DNA of 57,378 bases, the filler included, from Basidiobolus ranarum (taxonomy: Eukaryota): the NCBI GenBank assembly GCA_040143965.1. It is 2 parts of 2 records of this genome, joined end to end, with 100 filler letters (N's around TTAATTAATTAA, not from the genome) between each part and the next. Parts side by side here need not be neighbours in the genome. Positions count along the whole stretch, not along the records: positions 1 to 28,668 come from JASJQH010006987.1; 1 more part is not named here. One strand, written 5' to 3'. The notes under the pieces were generated by a model. That model was given only the letters and a program-made list of their open reading frames with translations, did no database searches and was not told the DNA's origin. Shown here piece by piece: positions 1,147 through 50,412 of the stretch. Position 1 is the stretch's first letter, and every line of letters begins with the position of its first letter. Position numbers and translations under genes: made by a program.

Positions 1147-1466
1147 TCTTTAGATTAGATCAATATGTTCAAATTGAAATAAAGAGATTCTTATTATTGA
1201 AATTCCAAAGCTTTTGTAGTTATATTTTGATTATGTGTTGAATAATTTTCGTGACGGAATATTCATTTATTAATGTTCCTTCTAATAGTTATCAATTTAG
1301 GGTTAAGTTGATTTGATTGGTTAAGTTGATTTGATTCATGGGATATTTGTTCTTTTTACTTTTCCTTAAATGACACCAAAAGTTCAGGCTGTATATTATA
1401 TGTAGCAAATAACCTTTATATAATGACATTGTTTGCAATCGACATAATTATGTGCCATACAAAAGT

Positions 1467-19254: not shown

Positions 19255-19620
19255 TTAAGCATCAGCAATGGTAACTTCGACCTCTACTCCGGGTTCGATG
19301 GAGATGGAGGTGATTTGCTTAACGATCTCAGAAGGAGAGTGAAGATCGATGAGACGCTTGTGGATTCTCATTTCGAAACGATCCCAGGTCTTGGAACCCT
19401 CACCGTTAGGGGTCTTACGGGTGGTGATACGAAGGACCTTGGTGGGGAGACGGACAGGACCCTTGACACGGAGTTGCTTGTCCTTAGCACGAGAGACAAG
19501 GTCAGCGCAGACCTTTTCAAGATTCTTGACATTACGAGAAGTCAAAGTGATACGAATCTTGTGGATCTTTGCTTCGACTTGTTCTTCGAAACCGGGTTTT
19601 CCCTTAGCGACGTAAGCCAT
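19255..19620 (-). CDS. RPS20: 40S ribosomal protein S20 (uS10)
   Basis: [14 protein letters not shown]...KGPVRLPTK...[14 protein letters not shown]...HKRLIDL. Confidence 0.98.
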
Positions 19621-20075
19621 GGTTGAGAATATACACTAAAATTAACAAATTAATTAAACACCACGGCGCAGCGGTGACTAGAGGATTTGTTGAAAGGAGA
19701 AAGAGGTCACCACACTCTAAACAGTTTATATTCGCACTCCAGGCTTTTTTTTTCAACATCTGGAGGGGGCTGTCCAATCATCTCTAGGTAGCATATTCTT
19801 GGAAATTGATCTAGAAGATTACGAATGAACTTATGAATTTACAAAATCATTCAAGATCATTCAGAATTACCCAAAATATAATGACTGTTGGTAGAAATTT
19901 TATGCATGGTGTTCATGAATTTCCCGTGTCACAGAGCTCAAGAAAAAAAGATCTAAGGAAAATAGTGGTGTCCTATTCGACAAGGGGATGGAAATCAAAT
20001 GAATTAAAATCTAGCGGATTTGTTGTTGGTCCATCCTTTCCGCTCTTCTTTACTCCGTCGAGCTAATTATTCAAG

Positions 20076-20591
20076 ATGGGTCGCATGCACACTCCTGGGT
20101 ATGTATTGAATCTATAATACGAATGGATGCATCCAACAACCACTAACTATTTGTACAGTAAGGGTATTGCTTCTTCAGCTCTCCCCTATCGTCGTACTCC
20201 TCCTTCCTGGGTCAAGTCCACCCCTGAGGAAGTTTGCGAACACATTTGCAAGCTCGCCAAGAAGGGTTTGACTCCTTCCCAGATCGGTGTTCTCCTCAGA
20301 GATTCTCACGGTATCCCCCAAGTCAGAAGCGTCACCGGTAACAAGGTTCTTCGTATCTTGAAGGGTAACGGTTTGGCCCCTGAGATTCCTGAAGATCTTT
20401 ACCACCTCATCAAGAAGGCCGTTGCCGTTCGTAAGCATTTGGAACGCAACAGAAAGGACTGTGACTCCAAGTACCGTTTGATTCTCATCGAATCCAGAAT
20501 TCACAGATTGGCCCGTTACTACAAAACCGCCGGTCAATTGGCCCCTAACTGGAAGTACGAATCTTCTACCGCTTCCGCTTTGGTCGCCTAA
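20076..20591 (+). CDS. RPS13: 40S ribosomal protein S13 (uS15), 2 exons
   Basis: [18 protein letters not shown]...[13 protein letters not shown]...[17 protein letters not shown]. Intron approx. 20099-20158. Confidence 0.98.
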
Positions 20592-20760
20592 GTCCTTTTC
20601 CTTATTTCATATTATTTGAAGAAATAAAAGTGTAAGGTATACATTTTTGCATTTCTTTTTGGTTAATTTGTATTTGGTTTTTACTGGTTGCATGGTGATT
20701 CTTTGAATTACGATGCTAGGGGAATGGGAACAGGTTTAGCACGGAGTATTTGTTCGTTTC

Positions 20761-20841
20761 GGAAATGATGACTACTTTTATTTCGAGATTAAATGCCACT
20801 ATGTGGATTTATGCTCTAGTTGTATTCACACTGTCTGATCC
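20761..20841 (+). ncRNA. Box C/D snoRNA copy 1 (guide for the LSU rRNA site equivalent to yeast Um2729; snR51/SNORD41-type)
   Basis: GGA/TCC terminal stem, C box ATGATGA, D box CTGA. The guide TTGTATTCACACTG is complementary to the recalled 25S sequence CAGUGUGAAUACAA. Confidence 0.85.
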
Positions 20842-20868
20842 ATTAATGAACAAACTCTTGCTTATTCC

Positions 20869-20937
20869 GTCTAATTAGCTCTATGGTAGAGCGTAAGATT
20901 TATCTTAAAGGTGTGGGTTCGATTCCCATGTTAGTCT
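20869..20937 (+). ncRNA. tRNA-like element 1 (tRNA-Lys-like body, 4-nt anticodon loop)
   Basis: GTCTAAT TA GCTC TATGGTA GAGC G TAAGA-TTTA-TCTTA AAGGT GTGGG TTCGATT CCCAT GTTAGTC. A and B boxes are present. Confidence 0.8.
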
Positions 20938-20966
20938 TTTGAGTGCAAGTATATTCACATTGTTTT

Positions 20967-21046
20967 GGATATGATGACTTTATTTCTTCGAGATTAAATG
21001 CCACTATGTGGGTTTATGCTCTAGTTGTATTCACACTGTCTGATCC
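20967..21046 (+). ncRNA. Box C/D snoRNA copy 2
   Basis: GGA..ATGATGA...TTGTATTCACACTGT-CTGA-TCC, with the same guide as copy 1. Confidence 0.85.
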
Positions 21047-21080
21047 TCTAATGAACATAGTATATATGCATGCATAATTC

Positions 21081-21151
21081 GTCTAACTAGCTCAAATTGG
21101 TAGAGCGTAAGATATATCTTAAAGGTGTGGGTTCAATTCCCATGTTAGTCT
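21081..21151 (+). ncRNA. tRNA-like element 2 (4-nt anticodon loop)
   Basis: GTCTAAC TA GCTC AAATTGGTA GAGC G TAAGA-TATA-TCTTA AAGGT GTGGG TTCAATT CCCAT GTTAGTC. Confidence 0.8.
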
Positions 21152-21181
21152 TTAAAGAGTTGATAAATTGCAATTAGTTCT

Positions 21182-21261
21182 GGATATGATGATTTTATTT
21201 CTTCGAAATTAAACGCCACTATGTGGGTTTATGATCTAGTTGTATTCACACTGTCTGATCC
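21182..21261 (+). ncRNA. Box C/D snoRNA copy 3
   Basis: Same boxes and same guide, with a C'-like ATGATCT. Confidence 0.85.
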
Positions 21262-21292
21262 AATCAATTTGCAATTTATCCATTCAAAATTC

Positions 21293-21364
21293 GCCTAACT
21301 AGCTTAAAATGGTAGAGCATAAAGATATATCTTAAGGATATGGGTTCGAATCCCATGTTAGTTC
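21293..21364 (+). ncRNA. tRNA-like element 3 (4-nt anticodon loop)
   Basis: GCCTAAC TA GCTT AAAATGGTA GAGC A TAAAGA-TATA-TCTTA AGGAT ATGGG TTCGAAT CCCAT GTTAGTT. Confidence 0.75.
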
Positions 21365-21759
21365 ATAATATGAATAGTGATGATATTTAACCATGTGAAT
21401 TATTCAATAAATTCAAAATTCATCTTAATTTGCGCTTGTAAAGTTGAAAGTAAAAGAGTGTTGTTTATTAACAAAAGCTGCACCTTGACACTGCTATTGA
21501 CCACAAAACAAACAGGTCTCTAATCCATTCATACTTAGATTCGTATACACGAGTGAGTAAAGTTATAAATTTTTGGCTGTTGCGAGGGGTTTATTGTGAA
21601 AACATGGGAAGGTATTAGGGAGCGAGCGGCATTGTTCAGTTATGGTGTTGTTTTTATAAGCGTGAAAAAAAAGAATGGTAACAGGAAGCATAATGGCAAG
21701 TGTGGTAAGAGAAAATTAGAGTAAAATCTTGATCTAGATTGGATTCTACAACATCTGTC

Positions 21760-23461
21760 TTATTTTAAATCAATAATAAACTCCCACCTTCCCTCTGACA
21801 ATCCCTTGGCAGTATCTTCTAGAACAACTTCTCTTCGGCTAGCTACGTAAACACTCTTATCAAGAACATTCTGCTTTAATTCGGTGATCTTGGTAGGAGC
21901 AATTGGAGTTTCAAGAAGTTCACTAAGTTGTTCAACAGCCATCTCTAGATCTCTTTGATTATCTTCAAATAGAGCGGTCATGTTGTTTCTTGCGAGATAG
22001 AACGCAAATGCGTAAGTCCATTTAAGAGTCATACGGCATTCCACTACAGTATCTAATGCTCTTTTAAGAAATTGTACTTCAATCCAAGATAAATCTGACG
22101 TTTGTTGCATCTCTTCCATCTTCTTCTCGGTTTTGGAATACATCTCTCTATCCAGTTTGGCACTCTGCTCGTGATTGGCATACCGATTATAATACTACAA
22201 TGATGGAGTGATTAGTTCTATGTTGATGGCTTTTGTAGAAAGTAGTGATGCTTACATGAAGGTAACGTTCTAGAGTGGCCCTAGAGTCAGCTTGTTTATC
22301 TCTGGCATCTGTGCTACTTTTCTCATCATAGCGATTGCAGTTGTACCAGTTTGTTCCATGCTCTGACCAAGGACCCATGCATACCCAACAGAACTCATGC
22401 CGACATTTTCTACAAGTCATATGGTTACATCCTCCGTTCTTTTCGATGGTAGAGTGACAAGCTGGACATTCCTTGGTGTTTGCAGAAATCCAGTTGGCTG
22501 TCTCTGAATCGTCTTCACATTTTTTGATCCACTGTTTGACTAGAGCACAAATGCATGGTTGATGATCAGCTACACCACAACCAAAACAGAATGTATGGCC
22601 ACATTTGCAGACTACAGTTGGGACGACTGACGAAAGTGAAGTGTGAGGGATGTGGCAGGAGACTGCATATTCACAATTAGGAGCAGGGCACCATCTCAAA
22701 TGGTCGTTGTCATCAACATAGGTACGATTTAGAAGCATCCGATATCTATAAATATACGAGGGTTATTAGGGACATGTCAATGTAACGTTTTCAAAGTAGA
22801 TTTACCTTTCATAAACAGTTGGACTGACAAGTAGCTCCACGGTTTTCGCGTCAATAACTAAATTACAGCATTCACCGGGGCATTGAATCTTCCGACTTTC
22901 TCCTTCTTCCTTGATTTTTTGAACGAGGTAGTGTTGATAACAGTTGATGCAAAACCTATGATTACATGGCAAAGAGACTGTATCTAGATCTGGATCATCA
23001 TCACAGCAGATATCACATACAAAGCCAGGAACCTTGGCGATTTTTACAGGACTTTCGTCGTTTGTGAGGATTCCAGCGTTGGATAAAATTTTCTCCGGTG
23101 TATCCATGTACCTTTCTATCAAAGATTCTTTGTTCCAACGGAAAAATCTAAGTAAGGTAGCAGCTTGTTGTTCTGGAAGTCCAAGAATATTCGAGACGTG
23201 GGTAATCTCTTTATTTTGACATTCAACAATATCTTCAATAGATAGAATAGTGAAGTCAACTTCGTAAATTCTTTTCTTATTTTTTTCTAACATTACAGTA
23301 CTAAAACCCATATCATCTCCGTCCAGTTCATAGTCGTCTTCTAAAACATCGTCATCGTCCTCTTCCTCTTCCATTTCAAATTCACTTCCTTCCTCAAAAG
23401 CGTCGTTTTCTTCAAAACTGCCATCGTCTTGGTATTCTTCGTCGAAATCCATGTCAGACAT
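21760..23461 (-). CDS. ARIH1: Ariadne-family RBR E3 ubiquitin ligase (ARIH1/Hel1), 3 exons
   Basis: Acidic N-terminus, RING1 (CDICC..CNHRFC), IBR (WCPAPNC), RING2 (CPACHSTIEKNGGCNHMTC) and Ariadne domain (LSWIEVQFL..TLKWTYAFAFYL). Confidence 0.95.
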
Positions 23462-49078: not shown

Positions 49079-50412
49079 ATGGATTCTTTTATCTTGCGTG
49101 GAACTCTTACAGGTGATTCTAATTAATAAAGAAATCAGTTTTTGCGTCGCTCTCTGAACTCTCTTTCTATGTGTTGATTACACTTTGTATATCATCTCTG
49201 GAATGGATGGATTGAAAACCCTTACAGATACGTAGAAAGTGCACTGACTTCTAGCGATTTGTAGGTCACACCAACTGGGTTACTGCTATCGCTACTTCCC
49301 CTGAGAACCCTGATATGGTTCTGTCCGCCTCCCGTGGTAAGTTTTAGTTGTACGATACTACGCAACACTCGGGTGTGGATGGTTCTCCCTTTCTCGATAA
49401 GTCCAACATCATTAGGAATCTTACCCGCGATGAATCCAACTATGGTGTTCCTCGCAAGGCTCTTCACGGCCATAACCATTTCATCCAAGACCTTGCCATT
49501 TCCTCCGATGGTCAATTTGCCCTTTCTGCTTCTTGGGATAAGACTCTTCGTCTTTGGGACCTCAACACCGGTGCCACTACTCGTAGATTCGTTGGACACA
49601 CTGGTGATGTTATGTCAGTTGCTTTCTCTGCTGATAATCGCCAGATCGTCTCTAGTGGCCGTGATAAGTCTATCAAGTTGTGGAACACTCTCGGTGAATG
49701 CAAATACAATCTCACCGAAAATGGTCACAGCGAATGGGTTTCATGCGTTAGATTCTCACCTAACCCCGCCAACCCTGTCATCGTGTCTGGTGGTTGGGAT
49801 AAGCTTGTGAAGGTACATTTTCATTTCTTTTCATTTGCTTTTTTGGAATATATGATGTTTGAATATATTTGCTACTTCAGAGAAGGTTACCTTTCAATGA
49901 GACAAACAATCACCAATATCTGATCCAACATCTTGAAATCTCTCCACCTCTTTTGAAATCACTTCATATTGACCTTGTTGCATTATCAGGTTTGGGACCT
50001 ATCCAAGTGCAAGATTCGCACCAACCACATCGGTCACACTGGCTACATTAACACCGTCACCATCTCTCCTGATGGTTCTCTCTGCGCCACCGCTGGTAAG
50101 GACGGTGTTGTCATGTTGTGGGATCTTAATGATGGCAAGCACCTTTACTCCTTGGAAGCTGGCGATGAAGTCAACGCTTTGACCTTCAGCCCCAACAGAT
50201 ATTGGCTCTGTGCTGCTACCTCATCTGGTATTAAGGTTTGGGATCTTGAATCCAAGTCTGTTGTTGATGAACTTCGCCCCGAATTCGTTGGTGTTGGTCG
50301 CAAGTCTAACGATCCTTACTGCGTCTCCCTTGCCTGGTCCGCTGACGGAAATGCTTTGTTCTCTGGATACACAGATAACGAAATTCGTGTCTGGCAAGTT
50401 ATCAGAGCTTAA
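49079..50412 (+). CDS. RACK1: RACK1 (Asc1/Cpc2) WD40 ribosomal protein, 3 exons
   Basis: [37 protein letters not shown] and [12 protein letters not shown] motifs. Introns approx. 49113-49264 and 49813-49990. Confidence 0.97.
49845..49926 (+). ncRNA. SNR24: Intronic box C/D snoRNA U24/snR24
   Basis: Lies in RACK1 intron 2. TTGGA/TCCAA stem, variant C box ATGATGT, guide ATATTTGCTACTT before D' CAGA, C'-like ATGAGAC, and ATCACCAATAT-CTGA. Yeast snR24 is hosted in the ASC1 intron. Confidence 0.9.

What the first reader, a model, noticed from the sequence alone, without database searches (positions are those of the whole stretch)
20761..21364. Tandem array of three [C/D snoRNA + anticodon-less tRNA mimic] units directly downstream of RPS13
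Seen in sequence: three units with periods of 206 and 215 bp. Each is a C/D snoRNA (ATGATGA...CTGA, GGA/TCC stem) followed about 30 nt later by a cloverleaf with acceptor, D and T arms and Pol III A/B boxes. The spacers have diverged while both modules are conserved. The array starts 170 nt after the RPS13 stop on the same strand, begins with a snoRNA and ends with a tRNA-like element, so the unit is snoRNA then tRNA-like. No run of 5 or more T interrupts it. Established: plant tRNA-snoR43 dicistrons, Pol III-transcribed yeast SNR52 and MALAT1/mascRNA processing are precedents. The plant dicistrons and SNR52 place the tRNA or A/B-box leader upstream, and none of the three is a repeated array. 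Inference: this is a natural tRNA-punctuated polycistron in which RNase P/Z cut at non-decoding tRNA mimics to release snoRNA precursors, possibly from RPS13 read-through. Alternatively, the mimics act as Pol III promoters for copies 2 and 3. I do not recognise this architecture as described in fungi.
Basis: partly seen in the sequence, partly recalled or inferred. Interest (0 to 1): 0.9.

Follow-up and report, generated by a model that had tools for sequence, protein, structure and literature searches.

The report
snoRNA array punctuated by anticodon-less tRNA look-alikes
Just after a ribosomal-protein gene, a Basidiobolus-like fungus carries three copies of a small rRNA-modifying guide RNA, each followed by a tRNA look-alike without an anticodon; these look-alikes most likely mark where tRNA-trimming enzymes cut a long transcript, but no RNA data could be examined.

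Summary
Window 20760-21364 (+) holds three tandem units. Each is an ~81-nt box C/D snoRNA, a 27-34 nt spacer and a 69-72 nt cloverleaf that scores as tRNA in Rfam (47.4, 46.6 and 38.7 bits; threshold 29). The cloverleaf's anticodon arm ends in a 4-nt loop. The array starts 170 nt after the RPS13 stop codon.

Both modules are 79-95% identical between copies. The spacers are no more alike than shuffled sequence. All four substitutions at cloverleaf positions that pair keep the pairing. So both modules appear selected at the RNA level, and the tRNA-like cannot decode.

The snoRNA's 3' guide aligns with the SNORD41 guide (yeast snR51 site, 25S-U2729), but no Rfam snoRNA family threshold is reached.

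My best reading (about 0.5) is a polycistronic precursor cut by RNase P and RNase Z at the tRNA-likes. Which polymerase makes it is unresolved. Nothing about transcription or cleavage could be tested: no genome, no read data and no relatives' DNA were available.

In the searches I ran I found no paper describing this layout. I class it as a new variant of a known kind (plant tRNA-snoRNA dicistrons, MALAT1-mascRNA), known so far from one locus.

The parts
20077..20591 (+). RPS13 (uS15) gene: exon 1 at 20077-20099, a 59-nt intron at 20100-20158, exon 2 at 20159-20591 with the stop codon at 20589-20591.
   Evidence: Pfam Ribosomal_S13_N (88.4 bits) and Ribosomal_S15 (52.9 bits) on the exon 2 translation. 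ORF end. Intron borders read from the sequence.
20623..20682 (+). Likely RPS13 3'-end region: AATAAA at 20623 and three T5 runs at 20644, 20656 and 20678.
   Evidence: Motif and T-run listing. That it is a poly(A) site is inference.
20760..20841 (+). Box C/D snoRNA copy 1: C box 20765-20771, D box 20835-20838, GGA/TCC stem. Its 5' guide region differs from copies 2 and 3 by an indel.
   Evidence: Weak Rfam C/D matches (snoZ122 22.8 bits, SNORD41 19.5 bits), all below gathering.
20842..20868 (+). Spacer A1, 27 nt, unstructured.
   Evidence: Minimum free energy -1.0 kcal/mol. Identity to the other A spacers is 0.48-0.56.
20869..20937 (+). tRNA-like 1: a cloverleaf with a 4-nt anticodon loop (UUUA) and B box GGTTCGATTCC.
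   Evidence: RF00005 47.4 bits. The minimum-free-energy fold is the cloverleaf. B box.
20939..20965 (+). Spacer B1, 27 nt, unstructured.
20966..21046 (+). Box C/D snoRNA copy 2: C box 20971-20977, D box 21040-21043.
21047..21080 (+). Spacer A2, 34 nt, unstructured.
21081..21151 (+). tRNA-like 2: a cloverleaf with a 4-nt anticodon loop (UAUA) and B box GGTTCAATTCC.
   Evidence: RF00005 46.6 bits. ARAGORN 'tRNA-???'. Cloverleaf minimum-free-energy fold.
21153..21180 (+). Spacer B2, 28 nt, unstructured.
21181..21261 (+). Box C/D snoRNA copy 3: C box 21186-21192, D box 21255-21258.
21262..21292 (+). Spacer A3, 31 nt, unstructured.
21293..21364 (+). tRNA-like 3, the most diverged copy. It has one extra A in the anticodon stem and B box GGTTCGAATCC.
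   Evidence: RF00005 38.7 bits. ARAGORN 'tRNA-???'. Its minimum-free-energy fold on its own is not the cloverleaf.
21570..21574 (+). First T5 run downstream of the array. It would be the first Pol III stop if Pol III reads the array.

Best explanation
The locus encodes one long precursor RNA, read left to right from the RPS13 side. My favoured source is Pol II, either by read-through past the RPS13 poly(A) site or from a start in the 170-nt gap.

The precursor carries three paralogous copies of a SNORD41/snR51-type box C/D snoRNA. Each copy is followed by a tRNA-derived cloverleaf that has lost its anticodon loop. The cloverleaves serve as cutting marks:
- RNase P cuts at the 5' end of each tRNA-like. 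This leaves the upstream snoRNA with a 27-34 nt trailer, which 3' exonucleases then trim.
- RNase Z cuts after the discriminator base. This leaves a 27-28 nt leader, which 5'-to-3' exonucleases trim back to the next snoRNP.
- The last tRNA-like gives snoRNA 3 its 3' cut, so no poly(A) site is needed there.

In this reading the tRNA-likes do the job that RNase III (Rnt1) hairpins do in yeast snoRNA clusters.

Shown: the anatomy, the lack of an anticodon, selective conservation of both modules, stem-preserving substitutions, and the absence of any other structure between the snoRNAs. Inferred: every step that involves RNA, enzymes or polymerases.
For: 1. The elements are tRNA-derived but cannot decode. 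RF00005 scores are 47.4, 46.6 and 38.7 bits against a gathering score of 29, and the anticodon loop has 4 nt in all 3 of 3 copies. ARAGORN finds no anticodon in the 2 copies it calls.

2. Both modules look selected. Between copies the snoRNA is 0.85-0.95 identical and the tRNA-like 0.79-0.92. The best global alignments of the spacers give 0.47-0.62, which matches shuffled spacers (mean 0.54, sd 0.04). Pooled, the modules match at 406/463 columns and the spacers at 72/128 (Fisher p = 1e-13).

3. The constraint is on RNA structure, not only on the A and B boxes. In the cloverleaf, 60 of 63 pair cells are standard pairs. The 4 changes at pairing positions all keep the pair (GC to GU, CG to UG twice, GU to AU) and none breaks one. 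5 of 42 paired columns vary, against 11 of 30 unpaired columns. The acceptor and anticodon stems lie outside the promoter boxes and are conserved too.

4. The elements that RNase P and RNase Z use are intact. These are the acceptor stem, the T arm with its GGTTCRANTCC loop, and the GG of the D loop. The anticodon domain is dispensable for RNase P recognition, according to passages of PMC3858429.

5. The five spacers are 27-34 nt long and unstructured, with minimum free energies of 0 to -2.4 kcal/mol, no better than shuffles. The cloverleaf is therefore the only candidate processing signal between the snoRNAs.

6. The phase of the array fits 'each snoRNA needs a downstream cut'. It begins with a snoRNA and ends with a tRNA-like, and the flanks hold no decayed extra copy.

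7. There are precedents. The plant tRNAGly-snoR43 precursor needs RNase P and RNase Z (PMC3858429 passages; PMC2566860 passages). An archaeal tRNAVal-C/D sRNA8 pair is described in PMC3491384 (passages).
Against: There is no RNA evidence of any kind.

Only one locus is known. The tRNA-like pattern found 0 matches in metagenome contigs, genome contigs and viral contigs.

The three metagenomic C/D RNAs that share the same guide (L027, L057, L062; 3 of 69 loci fetched) have no tRNA on their 1.5-1.9 kb contigs. An unidentified eukaryotic RPS13 contig (L070, 74% identity) has none in the 3 kb downstream of the gene. So the linkage is not general.

With three sequences there are no double compensatory changes, and the shuffle control has no power.

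tRNA-like 3 does not fold into the cloverleaf as its minimum-free-energy structure. The minimum-free-energy fold of the whole 636-nt array does not keep the cloverleaves either.

The B boxes are intact, so TFIIIC binding and Pol III transcription are expected from the sequence alone. That favours the Pol III rival.

A likely RPS13 poly(A) signal and three T5 runs lie between RPS13 and snoRNA 1, so simple read-through is not guaranteed.
Confidence: 0.5

Rival explanations
1. Pol III units of the plant type. Each tRNA-like is an internal A/B-box promoter. It starts a Pol III transcript that runs into the next snoRNA, and RNase Z then makes that snoRNA's 5' side. The functional unit would be tRNA-like followed by snoRNA. 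snoRNA 1 and tRNA-like 3 would be left-over ends of the array.
For: - A B box is present in 3 of 3 tRNA-likes (perfect in copies 1 and 3, one purine change in copy 2) and nowhere else in the window. A-box-like D arms are also present.
- The 608-nt array has no T5 or longer run; only 185 of 5000 composition-matched shuffles are as clean. The 561 nt of flanks hold 5 such runs.
- The T runs directly behind the tRNA-likes are only 4, 3 and 0 long, so Pol III would read on into the next snoRNA.
- snoRNA 1 and tRNA-like 3 are the most diverged copies of their kind.
- Known dicistronic Pol III genes always have the tRNA first (PMC2566860 passages).
Against: - snoRNA 1 has no tRNA-like upstream and three T5 runs lie just before it, yet it keeps its C and D boxes, its stem and an identical 3' guide. 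It is 0.85-0.90 identical to the other copies while the spacers are noise.
- tRNA-like 3 has no snoRNA behind it. There is no significant similarity to the unit downstream (51 of 500 shuffles score as well). It still scores 38.7 bits and keeps all its stems.
- The pattern 's2 resembles s3, t1 resembles t2' is what one unequal crossover between two older units would give. It need not mean that the end copies are decaying.
- No terminator follows any snoRNA. The first T5 run is 206 nt after the last tRNA-like.
Confidence: 0.25
2. The tRNA-like has a function of its own and is only a neighbour of the snoRNA. It might be a stable small RNA like mascRNA, or a TFIIIC-bound chromatin element or boundary. 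It would have been copied along with the snoRNA by tandem duplication, while the snoRNAs are processed by other means.
For: Conservation shows constraint but does not say for what. TFIIIC sites that help to express neighbouring small-RNA genes are known from trypanosomatid tRNA-linked U3 genes (PMC2784804 passages).
Against: - The acceptor and anticodon stems are conserved and their changes keep the pairing. This points to an RNA rather than a DNA site.
- Same strand, strict 1:1 alternation, and spacer lengths that stay within 27-34 nt although the spacer sequence has turned over.
- There is no other processing structure between the snoRNAs.
- There are no dispersed copies in the 57 kb window.
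Confidence: 0.12
3. Neutral relic: a tRNA pseudogene that happened to lie next to a snoRNA and was triplicated with it.
For: Tandem duplication does copy neighbours together. Only one locus is known.
Against: The spacers have diverged to the level of shuffled sequence while the tRNA-like stays 0.79-0.92 identical and scores far above the Rfam threshold in all 3 copies. No substitution breaks a stem. The same 4-nt loop is found in all copies, so the loss of the anticodon predates a long period of conservation.
Confidence: 0.05

Closest known systems
Plant dicistronic tRNA-snoRNA genes (Arabidopsis tRNAGly(GCC)-snoR43, 12 copies; rice tRNA-eMet-snoRNA). Kruszka et al. 2003, seen only as cited in PMC2566860 and PMC3858429; the paper itself is not held.
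   Same: A box C/D snoRNA shares a strand and a precursor with a tRNA fold. Release depends on the tRNA enzymes RNase P and RNase Z (passages).
   Different: In plants the tRNA is a real decoding tRNA, it lies upstream, it supplies the Pol III promoter, and the copies are dispersed paralogues. Here the fold has no anticodon, the array begins with a snoRNA and ends with the tRNA-like, the units stand head to tail, and no terminator follows any snoRNA.
MALAT1-mascRNA and MEN-beta (NEAT1) 3'-end tRNA-like structures of vertebrates (recalled; no paper read here).
   Same: A non-decoding tRNA-like lies downstream of the functional RNA on a Pol II transcript. RNase P cutting makes the 3' end of the upstream RNA without a poly(A) site.
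   Different: Those are single elements at the end of a long non-coding RNA in animals. This one is repeated, it alternates with snoRNAs, and the organism is a fungus.
Yeast and other fungal Pol II polycistronic snoRNA clusters, for example snR72-78 and snR41-70-51 (snR77-73 cluster: PMC5824354 passages; the Rnt1 role is recalled).
   Same: Several C/D snoRNAs lie on one strand a short distance apart. Endonuclease cuts in the spacers are followed by exonuclease trimming.
   Different: The yeast clusters hold different snoRNAs, separated by RNase III (Rnt1) hairpins. Here three paralogues of one snoRNA are separated by cloverleaves, and the remaining spacer is unstructured.
tRNA punctuation of mitochondrial transcripts, plant mitochondrial t-elements, and the synthetic polycistronic tRNA-gRNA design.
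   Same: tRNAs or tRNA-like folds are used purely as RNase P and RNase Z cutting marks between other RNAs (t-elements: PMC3858429 passage). The synthetic design (PMC4982333) was seen only as a search listing.
   Different: Those cases are organellar or engineered. This one is a nuclear, natural array that releases snoRNAs.
Dicistronic tRNA-5S rRNA and tRNA-RUF70 genes of Yarrowia lipolytica (PMC2566860).
   Same: A fungal case in which a tRNA fold helps to make another small RNA (passages).
   Different: There a real tRNA lies upstream, Pol III transcribes the gene, and the copies are dispersed.
SNORD41 / yeast snR51 (guide for 28S-U4276, which is yeast 25S-U2729).
   Same: The 3' guide of the window's snoRNA aligns column for column with the SNORD41 consensus guide next to the D box, differing at 2 of 12 guide letters. 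SNORD41 targets 28S-U4276 = yeast 25S-U2729 (PMC8609340 passage), and snR51 guides U2729 (PMC3938493 passage).
   Different: The Rfam score is 15-19.5 bits against a gathering score of 41. The 5' guide is unassigned. The host's rRNA was not available, so pairing with it is untested.

Membership tests
Box C/D snoRNA (class) | C box RUGAUGA near the 5' end and D box CUGA near the 3' end, joined by a short terminal stem. | tested here: met
   ATGATGA, CTGA and a GGA/TCC stem are present in 3 of 3 copies.
Box C/D snoRNA (class) | A guide of at least 10 nt next to the D box that is complementary to rRNA. | tested here: inconclusive
   The guide is identical in 3 of 3 copies. It aligns with the SNORD41 guide. 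The same guide plus D box occurs in 3 metagenomic C/D-like RNAs of very different G+C content. The host rRNA is not held, so complementarity to the LSU rRNA rests on recall.
Rfam SNORD41 (RF00588) or any other Rfam snoRNA family | A score at or above the family's gathering threshold. | tested here: not met
   The best scores are snoZ122 22.8 bits (threshold 38), snoZ102_R77 21.2 (40) and SNORD41 19.5 (41).
tRNA (RF00005) | A cloverleaf that scores above the gathering threshold. | tested here: met
   47.4, 46.6 and 38.7 bits against a threshold of 29.
tRNA (functional, decoding) | A 7-nt anticodon loop carrying an anticodon. | tested here: not met
   The loop has 4 nt in 3 of 3 copies. ARAGORN reports 'tRNA-???' for the 2 copies it calls.
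Plant-type dicistronic tRNA-snoRNA gene | A decoding tRNA lies immediately upstream of the snoRNA and supplies the Pol III promoter. | tested here: not met
   The fold does not decode. snoRNA 1 has no upstream tRNA-like. 2 of 3 snoRNAs do have one 27-28 nt upstream.
Plant-type dicistronic tRNA-snoRNA gene | A Pol III terminator (T run) behind the snoRNA. | tested here: not met
   The array has no T5 or longer run. The next one is at 21570.
Plant-type dicistronic tRNA-snoRNA gene | Pol III transcription and RNase Z cleavage shown on RNA. | not testable with these tools
   No read data or genome is available.
mascRNA-type 3'-end tRNA-like | A non-decoding tRNA-like lies directly downstream of the functional RNA on the same strand. 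| tested here: met
   There are 27-34 nt between the snoRNA stem and position 1 of the cloverleaf in 3 of 3 units.
mascRNA-type 3'-end tRNA-like | RNase P cleavage makes the upstream RNA's 3' end. | not testable with these tools
   No RNA data.
Yeast-type polycistronic snoRNA cluster | RNase III (Rnt1) stem-loops in the spacers. | tested here: not met
   The five spacers are 27-34 nt long, with minimum free energies of 0 to -2.4 kcal/mol, no better than shuffles.

The most novel reading that the evidence does not exclude
This fungus uses anticodon-less tRNA look-alikes as dedicated, evolved cutting marks in a nuclear Pol II transcript. This would be a natural counterpart of the engineered tRNA-gRNA arrays. 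Cleavage at the RPS13 poly(A) site would open the 5' side of the first snoRNA, and the last tRNA-like would end the transcript without a poly(A) site. snoRNA output would then be tied to a ribosomal-protein gene. The same device may release other snoRNAs across Basidiobolus and related early-diverging fungi, in place of RNase III sites.
Probability: 0.35. Interest if true: 0.8.

Novelty: new variant of a known kind. Interest (0 to 1): 0.62.

Why it matters
Three ideas are already known: tRNA folds as cutting marks, tRNA-snoRNA co-transcripts in plants, and RNase P making 3' ends at MALAT1. A nuclear, repeated array with all of the following features appeared in none of the papers my searches returned:
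- the tRNA fold has been stripped of its anticodon;
- it has been kept under selection only as punctuation;
- it lies downstream of each snoRNA;
- it sits next to a ribosomal-protein gene.

If it is confirmed, it would show three things:
- The RNase P/Z route to snoRNA release arose independently in fungi.
- A tRNA gene can be converted into a pure processing signal in a nuclear genome.
- The design principle of synthetic tRNA-gRNA arrays already exists in nature.

It would also give a defined natural substrate for studying how nuclear RNase P and RNase Z recognise minimal tRNA shapes in an early-diverging fungus. The caveat is that the case rests on one locus and on sequence evidence only.

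Tried and rejected
- **Whole genome and read data.** Expression, RNA ends and other copies in the genome could therefore not be examined.
- **More copies of the tRNA-like elsewhere.** The 33-nt degenerate pattern matches the 3 window copies. It found 0 matches in metagenome contigs, genome contigs and viral contigs.
- **snoRNA homologues.** The guide-plus-D-box pattern gave 69 metagenome loci with 72 matches. Only 3 (L027, L057, L062) have a C box 46-60 nt upstream together with a terminal stem. 4 others carry a C-box-like word at an unsuitable distance (13, 18 or 106 nt) or lack the C/D layout, and the remaining matches have none, so I take these 66 loci as chance matches. None of the 3 has a tRNA or any Rfam match at E <= 0.1.
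- **Synteny.** Searching genome contigs with RPS13 gave 7 loci: 4 archaeal, 1 weak bacterial and 2 eukaryote-like contaminants. L070 (74% identity) has no tRNA and no Rfam match at E <= 1 in the 3 kb downstream. L071 is only 300 nt long. No Basidiobolus DNA was reachable.
- **A decayed fourth copy in the flanks.** Local alignment of units 2 and 3 against 20592-20756 and 21365-21760 scored no better than shuffles (452, 492, 300 and 51 of 500 shuffles scored at least as well). The C-box-like word near 21377, with a weak SNORD33 match at E = 1.8, is therefore not counted.
- **Folding the whole array.** The minimum-free-energy fold pairs the repeats with each other and does not keep the cloverleaves. 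I do not treat this as informative for a co-transcriptionally folded, protein-bound RNA, but it gives no support either.
- **Earlier findings of this scan.** There is nothing for this genome or this sequence. Word searches returned only prokaryotic and viral cases.
- **Kruszka et al. 2003.** The paper is not held, so the plant system is cited through two papers that describe it.
- **Target of the 5' (D') guide.** It could not be assigned without the rRNA sequence.
Full report
**What is there**

Between 20760 and 21364 on the + strand lie three head-to-tail units. Tandem Repeats Finder reports one array (20782-21362, period 215, 2.8 copies, 83% matches). The repeat finder resolves it into an 85-nt family spaced 205 and 215 nt and a 56-nt family spaced 214 and 213 nt.

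The first module of each unit is an ~81-nt box C/D RNA at 20760-20841, 20966-21046 and 21181-21261. Each has ATGATGA near its 5' end, CTGA near its 3' end, a GGA/TCC terminal stem and a small internal hairpin.

The second module is a 69-72 nt cloverleaf at 20869-20937, 21081-21151 and 21293-21364. These three are the only matches in the 57 kb window that reach an Rfam gathering score: tRNA RF00005 at 47.4, 46.6 and 38.7 bits against a threshold of 29.

In the Rfam alignments every tRNA feature is in place except the anticodon loop. Present are the 7-bp acceptor stem, the D arm with its GG, a 5-nt variable loop, and the T arm with GGTTCRANTCC. The 5-bp anticodon stem is closed by only four bases, UUUA in copy 1 and UAUA in copies 2 and 3. 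ViennaRNA returns exactly this cloverleaf as the minimum-free-energy fold for copies 1 and 2, but not for copy 3. ARAGORN calls copies 2 and 3 as 'tRNA-???'.

**Setting**

The COG7-like protein of the window is 70% identical to a Basidiobolus meristosporus protein and 68% identical to a B. ranarum protein. The next hits are at 29% or less. The window therefore comes from a Basidiobolus-like early-diverging fungus.

The array lies in a convergent gap:
- RPS20 on the - strand (19258-19620) and RPS13 on the + strand (20077-20591) are a head-to-head pair.
- The next gene downstream is an ARIH1-like RBR ubiquitin ligase on the - strand, ending at 21760.
- Between the RPS13 stop codon and the first snoRNA are an AATAAA (20623) and three T5 runs (20644, 20656, 20678).
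- After the array, the first T5 run is at 21570.
- No ATG-started ORF longer than 47 codons lies between the RPS13 stop and 21760; the longest that overlaps the array has 37 codons.

**Is it functional or a relic?**

The three copies give an internal test.
- Pairwise identity is 0.85-0.95 for the snoRNA and 0.79-0.92 for the tRNA-like.
- The best global alignments of the spacers give 0.47-0.62. Shuffled spacers give the same (mean 0.54, sd 0.04, maximum 0.67).
- Pooled, the modules match at 406/463 columns and the spacers at 72/128 (Fisher p = 1e-13).

The copies are therefore old enough for neutral sequence to have been randomised, yet both modules were kept.

In the cloverleaf, 60 of 63 pair cells are standard pairs. 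The four changes at pairing positions (GC to GU, CG to UG twice, GU to AU) all keep the pair. None breaks one. Pair 2:71 is unpaired in all three copies. Five of 42 paired columns vary, against 11 of 30 unpaired columns.

The acceptor and anticodon stems lie outside the A and B boxes. Their conservation therefore points to a folded RNA rather than only a TFIIIC binding site.

The 4-nt loop is shared by all copies, so the anticodon was lost before this long period of conservation.

The limits of this evidence are these: there are three sequences, there are no double compensatory changes, and the shuffle control has no power.

**The snoRNA**

No Rfam snoRNA family reaches its threshold. The best scores are snoZ122 at 22.8 bits (threshold 38) and SNORD41 at 19.5 bits (threshold 41).

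In the SNORD41 alignment, however, the 12 letters before the D box line up with the SNORD41 consensus guide and differ at two adjacent letters. SNORD41 guides 28S-U4276, which is yeast 25S-U2729 (PMC8609340 passage). In yeast this site is guided by snR51 (PMC3938493 passage). From memory, the complement of the window's guide occurs at that site in fungal 25S rRNA. I could not check this, because no rRNA of the host is held.

The same guide plus D box, with a C box 46-60 nt upstream, occurs in 3 of 69 metagenome loci with G+C contents of 0.30, 0.39 and 0.63. This fits a widely conserved guide.

The 5' guide is unassigned. In copy 1 it is shifted by an indel relative to copies 2 and 3.

**How it most likely works**

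The five spacers are 27-34 nt long and unstructured (minimum free energies of 0 to -2.4 kcal/mol, no better than shuffles). The cloverleaf is thus the only structured element between consecutive snoRNAs. It retains just the parts that RNase P and RNase Z read. The anticodon domain is dispensable for RNase P recognition (PMC3858429 passages).

I therefore favour one precursor in which RNase P cuts at position 1 of each tRNA-like and RNase Z cuts after its discriminator base. Exonucleases would then trim the 27-34 nt tails back to the snoRNP.

The phase of the array fits this. It begins with a snoRNA and ends with a tRNA-like, and the flanks hold no decayed extra copy. So every snoRNA has a cut site downstream of it, and the last tRNA-like can end the transcript.

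The 5' side of snoRNA 1 could be opened by cleavage at the RPS13 poly(A) site or by a separate start in the 170-nt gap. This is inference.

**The main rival**

The B boxes are intact and found nowhere else in the window. The array has no T5 or longer run, which only 185 of 5000 shuffles match, while the 561 nt of flanks have five. The T runs behind the tRNA-likes are only 4, 3 and 0 long. Pol III could therefore start at each tRNA-like and read into the next snoRNA, as in the plant tRNAGly-snoR43 genes.

Against this as the whole story:
- snoRNA 1 has no tRNA-like upstream, and T5 runs lie just before it.
- tRNA-like 3 has nothing behind it.
- Both are nevertheless conserved.

That the two end copies are the most diverged of their kind is equally well explained by one unequal crossover between two older units. 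Such a crossover would make s2 resemble s3 and t1 resemble t2.

Both models share the RNase P/Z step and differ in the polymerase.

I give lower odds to a separate function for the tRNA-like and to a neutral relic.

**What I could not do**

No genome and no read data were available. The tRNA-like pattern has no match in the three collections I could scan. The only RPS13 neighbourhood I could fetch is from an unidentified eukaryote at 74% identity, and it has no such array. The three metagenomic relatives of the snoRNA have no tRNA on their short contigs. So the linkage is not general among eukaryotes, and whether it is conserved in Basidiobolus is open.

**Literature**

Full-text searches were run for:
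- snoRNA with tRNA-like, polycistronic and fungi (6 papers)
- tRNA-snoRNA with dicistronic (40 papers)
- snoRNA, tRNA-like, RNase Z, RNase P and precursor (20 papers)
- 'snoRNA-tRNA' (39 papers)
- snoRNA with zygomycete taxon names
- Basidiobolus with tRNA (42 papers)

Judged from the listed titles and abstract openings, and from passages of the six papers I opened, none of these describes a snoRNA array punctuated by tRNA-likes.

The fungal snoRNAome survey (PMC5824354) has four mentions of tRNA. The two shown to me (a modification-target note and a reference) are unrelated, and the paper does not mention Basidiobolus at all (passages only).

The supplements of these papers were not seen. Subscription-only papers are not covered by the library.

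**Verdict**

I class the finding as a new variant of a known kind.

Noticed in passing
window 49841-49930 (+): A second box C/D snoRNA candidate scores 36.7 bits for SNORD24 and 34.8 bits for snoR64, both just below gathering. It lies inside an intron (about 49814-49990) of a RACK1/Asc1 gene. The exon translation matches solved RACK1 chains at E about 1e-79 to 1e-82. So this genome also uses the ordinary intron-hosted layout. From memory, yeast snR24 lies in the ASC1 intron in the same way..
   Followed up: partly
window 19258-20591: RPS20 (Ribosomal_S10, - strand) and RPS13 (+ strand) are a head-to-head pair about 450 bp apart. The snoRNA array therefore lies in a ribosomal-protein gene neighbourhood.
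   Followed up: no
window 20772-20790, compared with 20978-20995 and 21193-21210: The 5' (D') guide region of snoRNA copy 1 differs from copies 2 and 3 by an indel that shifts the T-rich guide by about 3 nt relative to the following GAGA. The copies might direct methylation at different positions, or this guide may be inactive.
   Followed up: no
window 21108-21121 and 21322-21335: The anticodon arm of tRNA-like 2 is a perfect 14-nt palindrome, and a 12-nt core of it recurs in tRNA-like 3. In the minimum-free-energy fold of the whole array many predicted pairs join different units rather than forming the cloverleaves.
   Followed up: no
window 21370-21423: A C-box-like GTGATGA lies just after the last tRNA-like, with a weak SNORD33 match (19.3 bits, E = 1.8). 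It shows no significant similarity to the repeat unit. It is probably nothing, but it is where a fourth snoRNA would lie.
   Followed up: partly
L027 about 1153-1250 (+); L057, minus strand, about 790-890 in + coordinates: Two metagenomic C/D RNAs share the same 3' guide and the same GGAT...ATCC-type ends as the window's snoRNA. The L027 copy is followed directly by a T8 run. Neither has a tRNA nearby.
   Followed up: partly
L070 and L071: Eukaryotic RPS13 coding sequence (74% and 82% identity) sits on contigs filed under a 'beta proteobacterium' MAG and an actinobacterial assembly. These are probably contaminant contigs in prokaryote bins.
   Followed up: no
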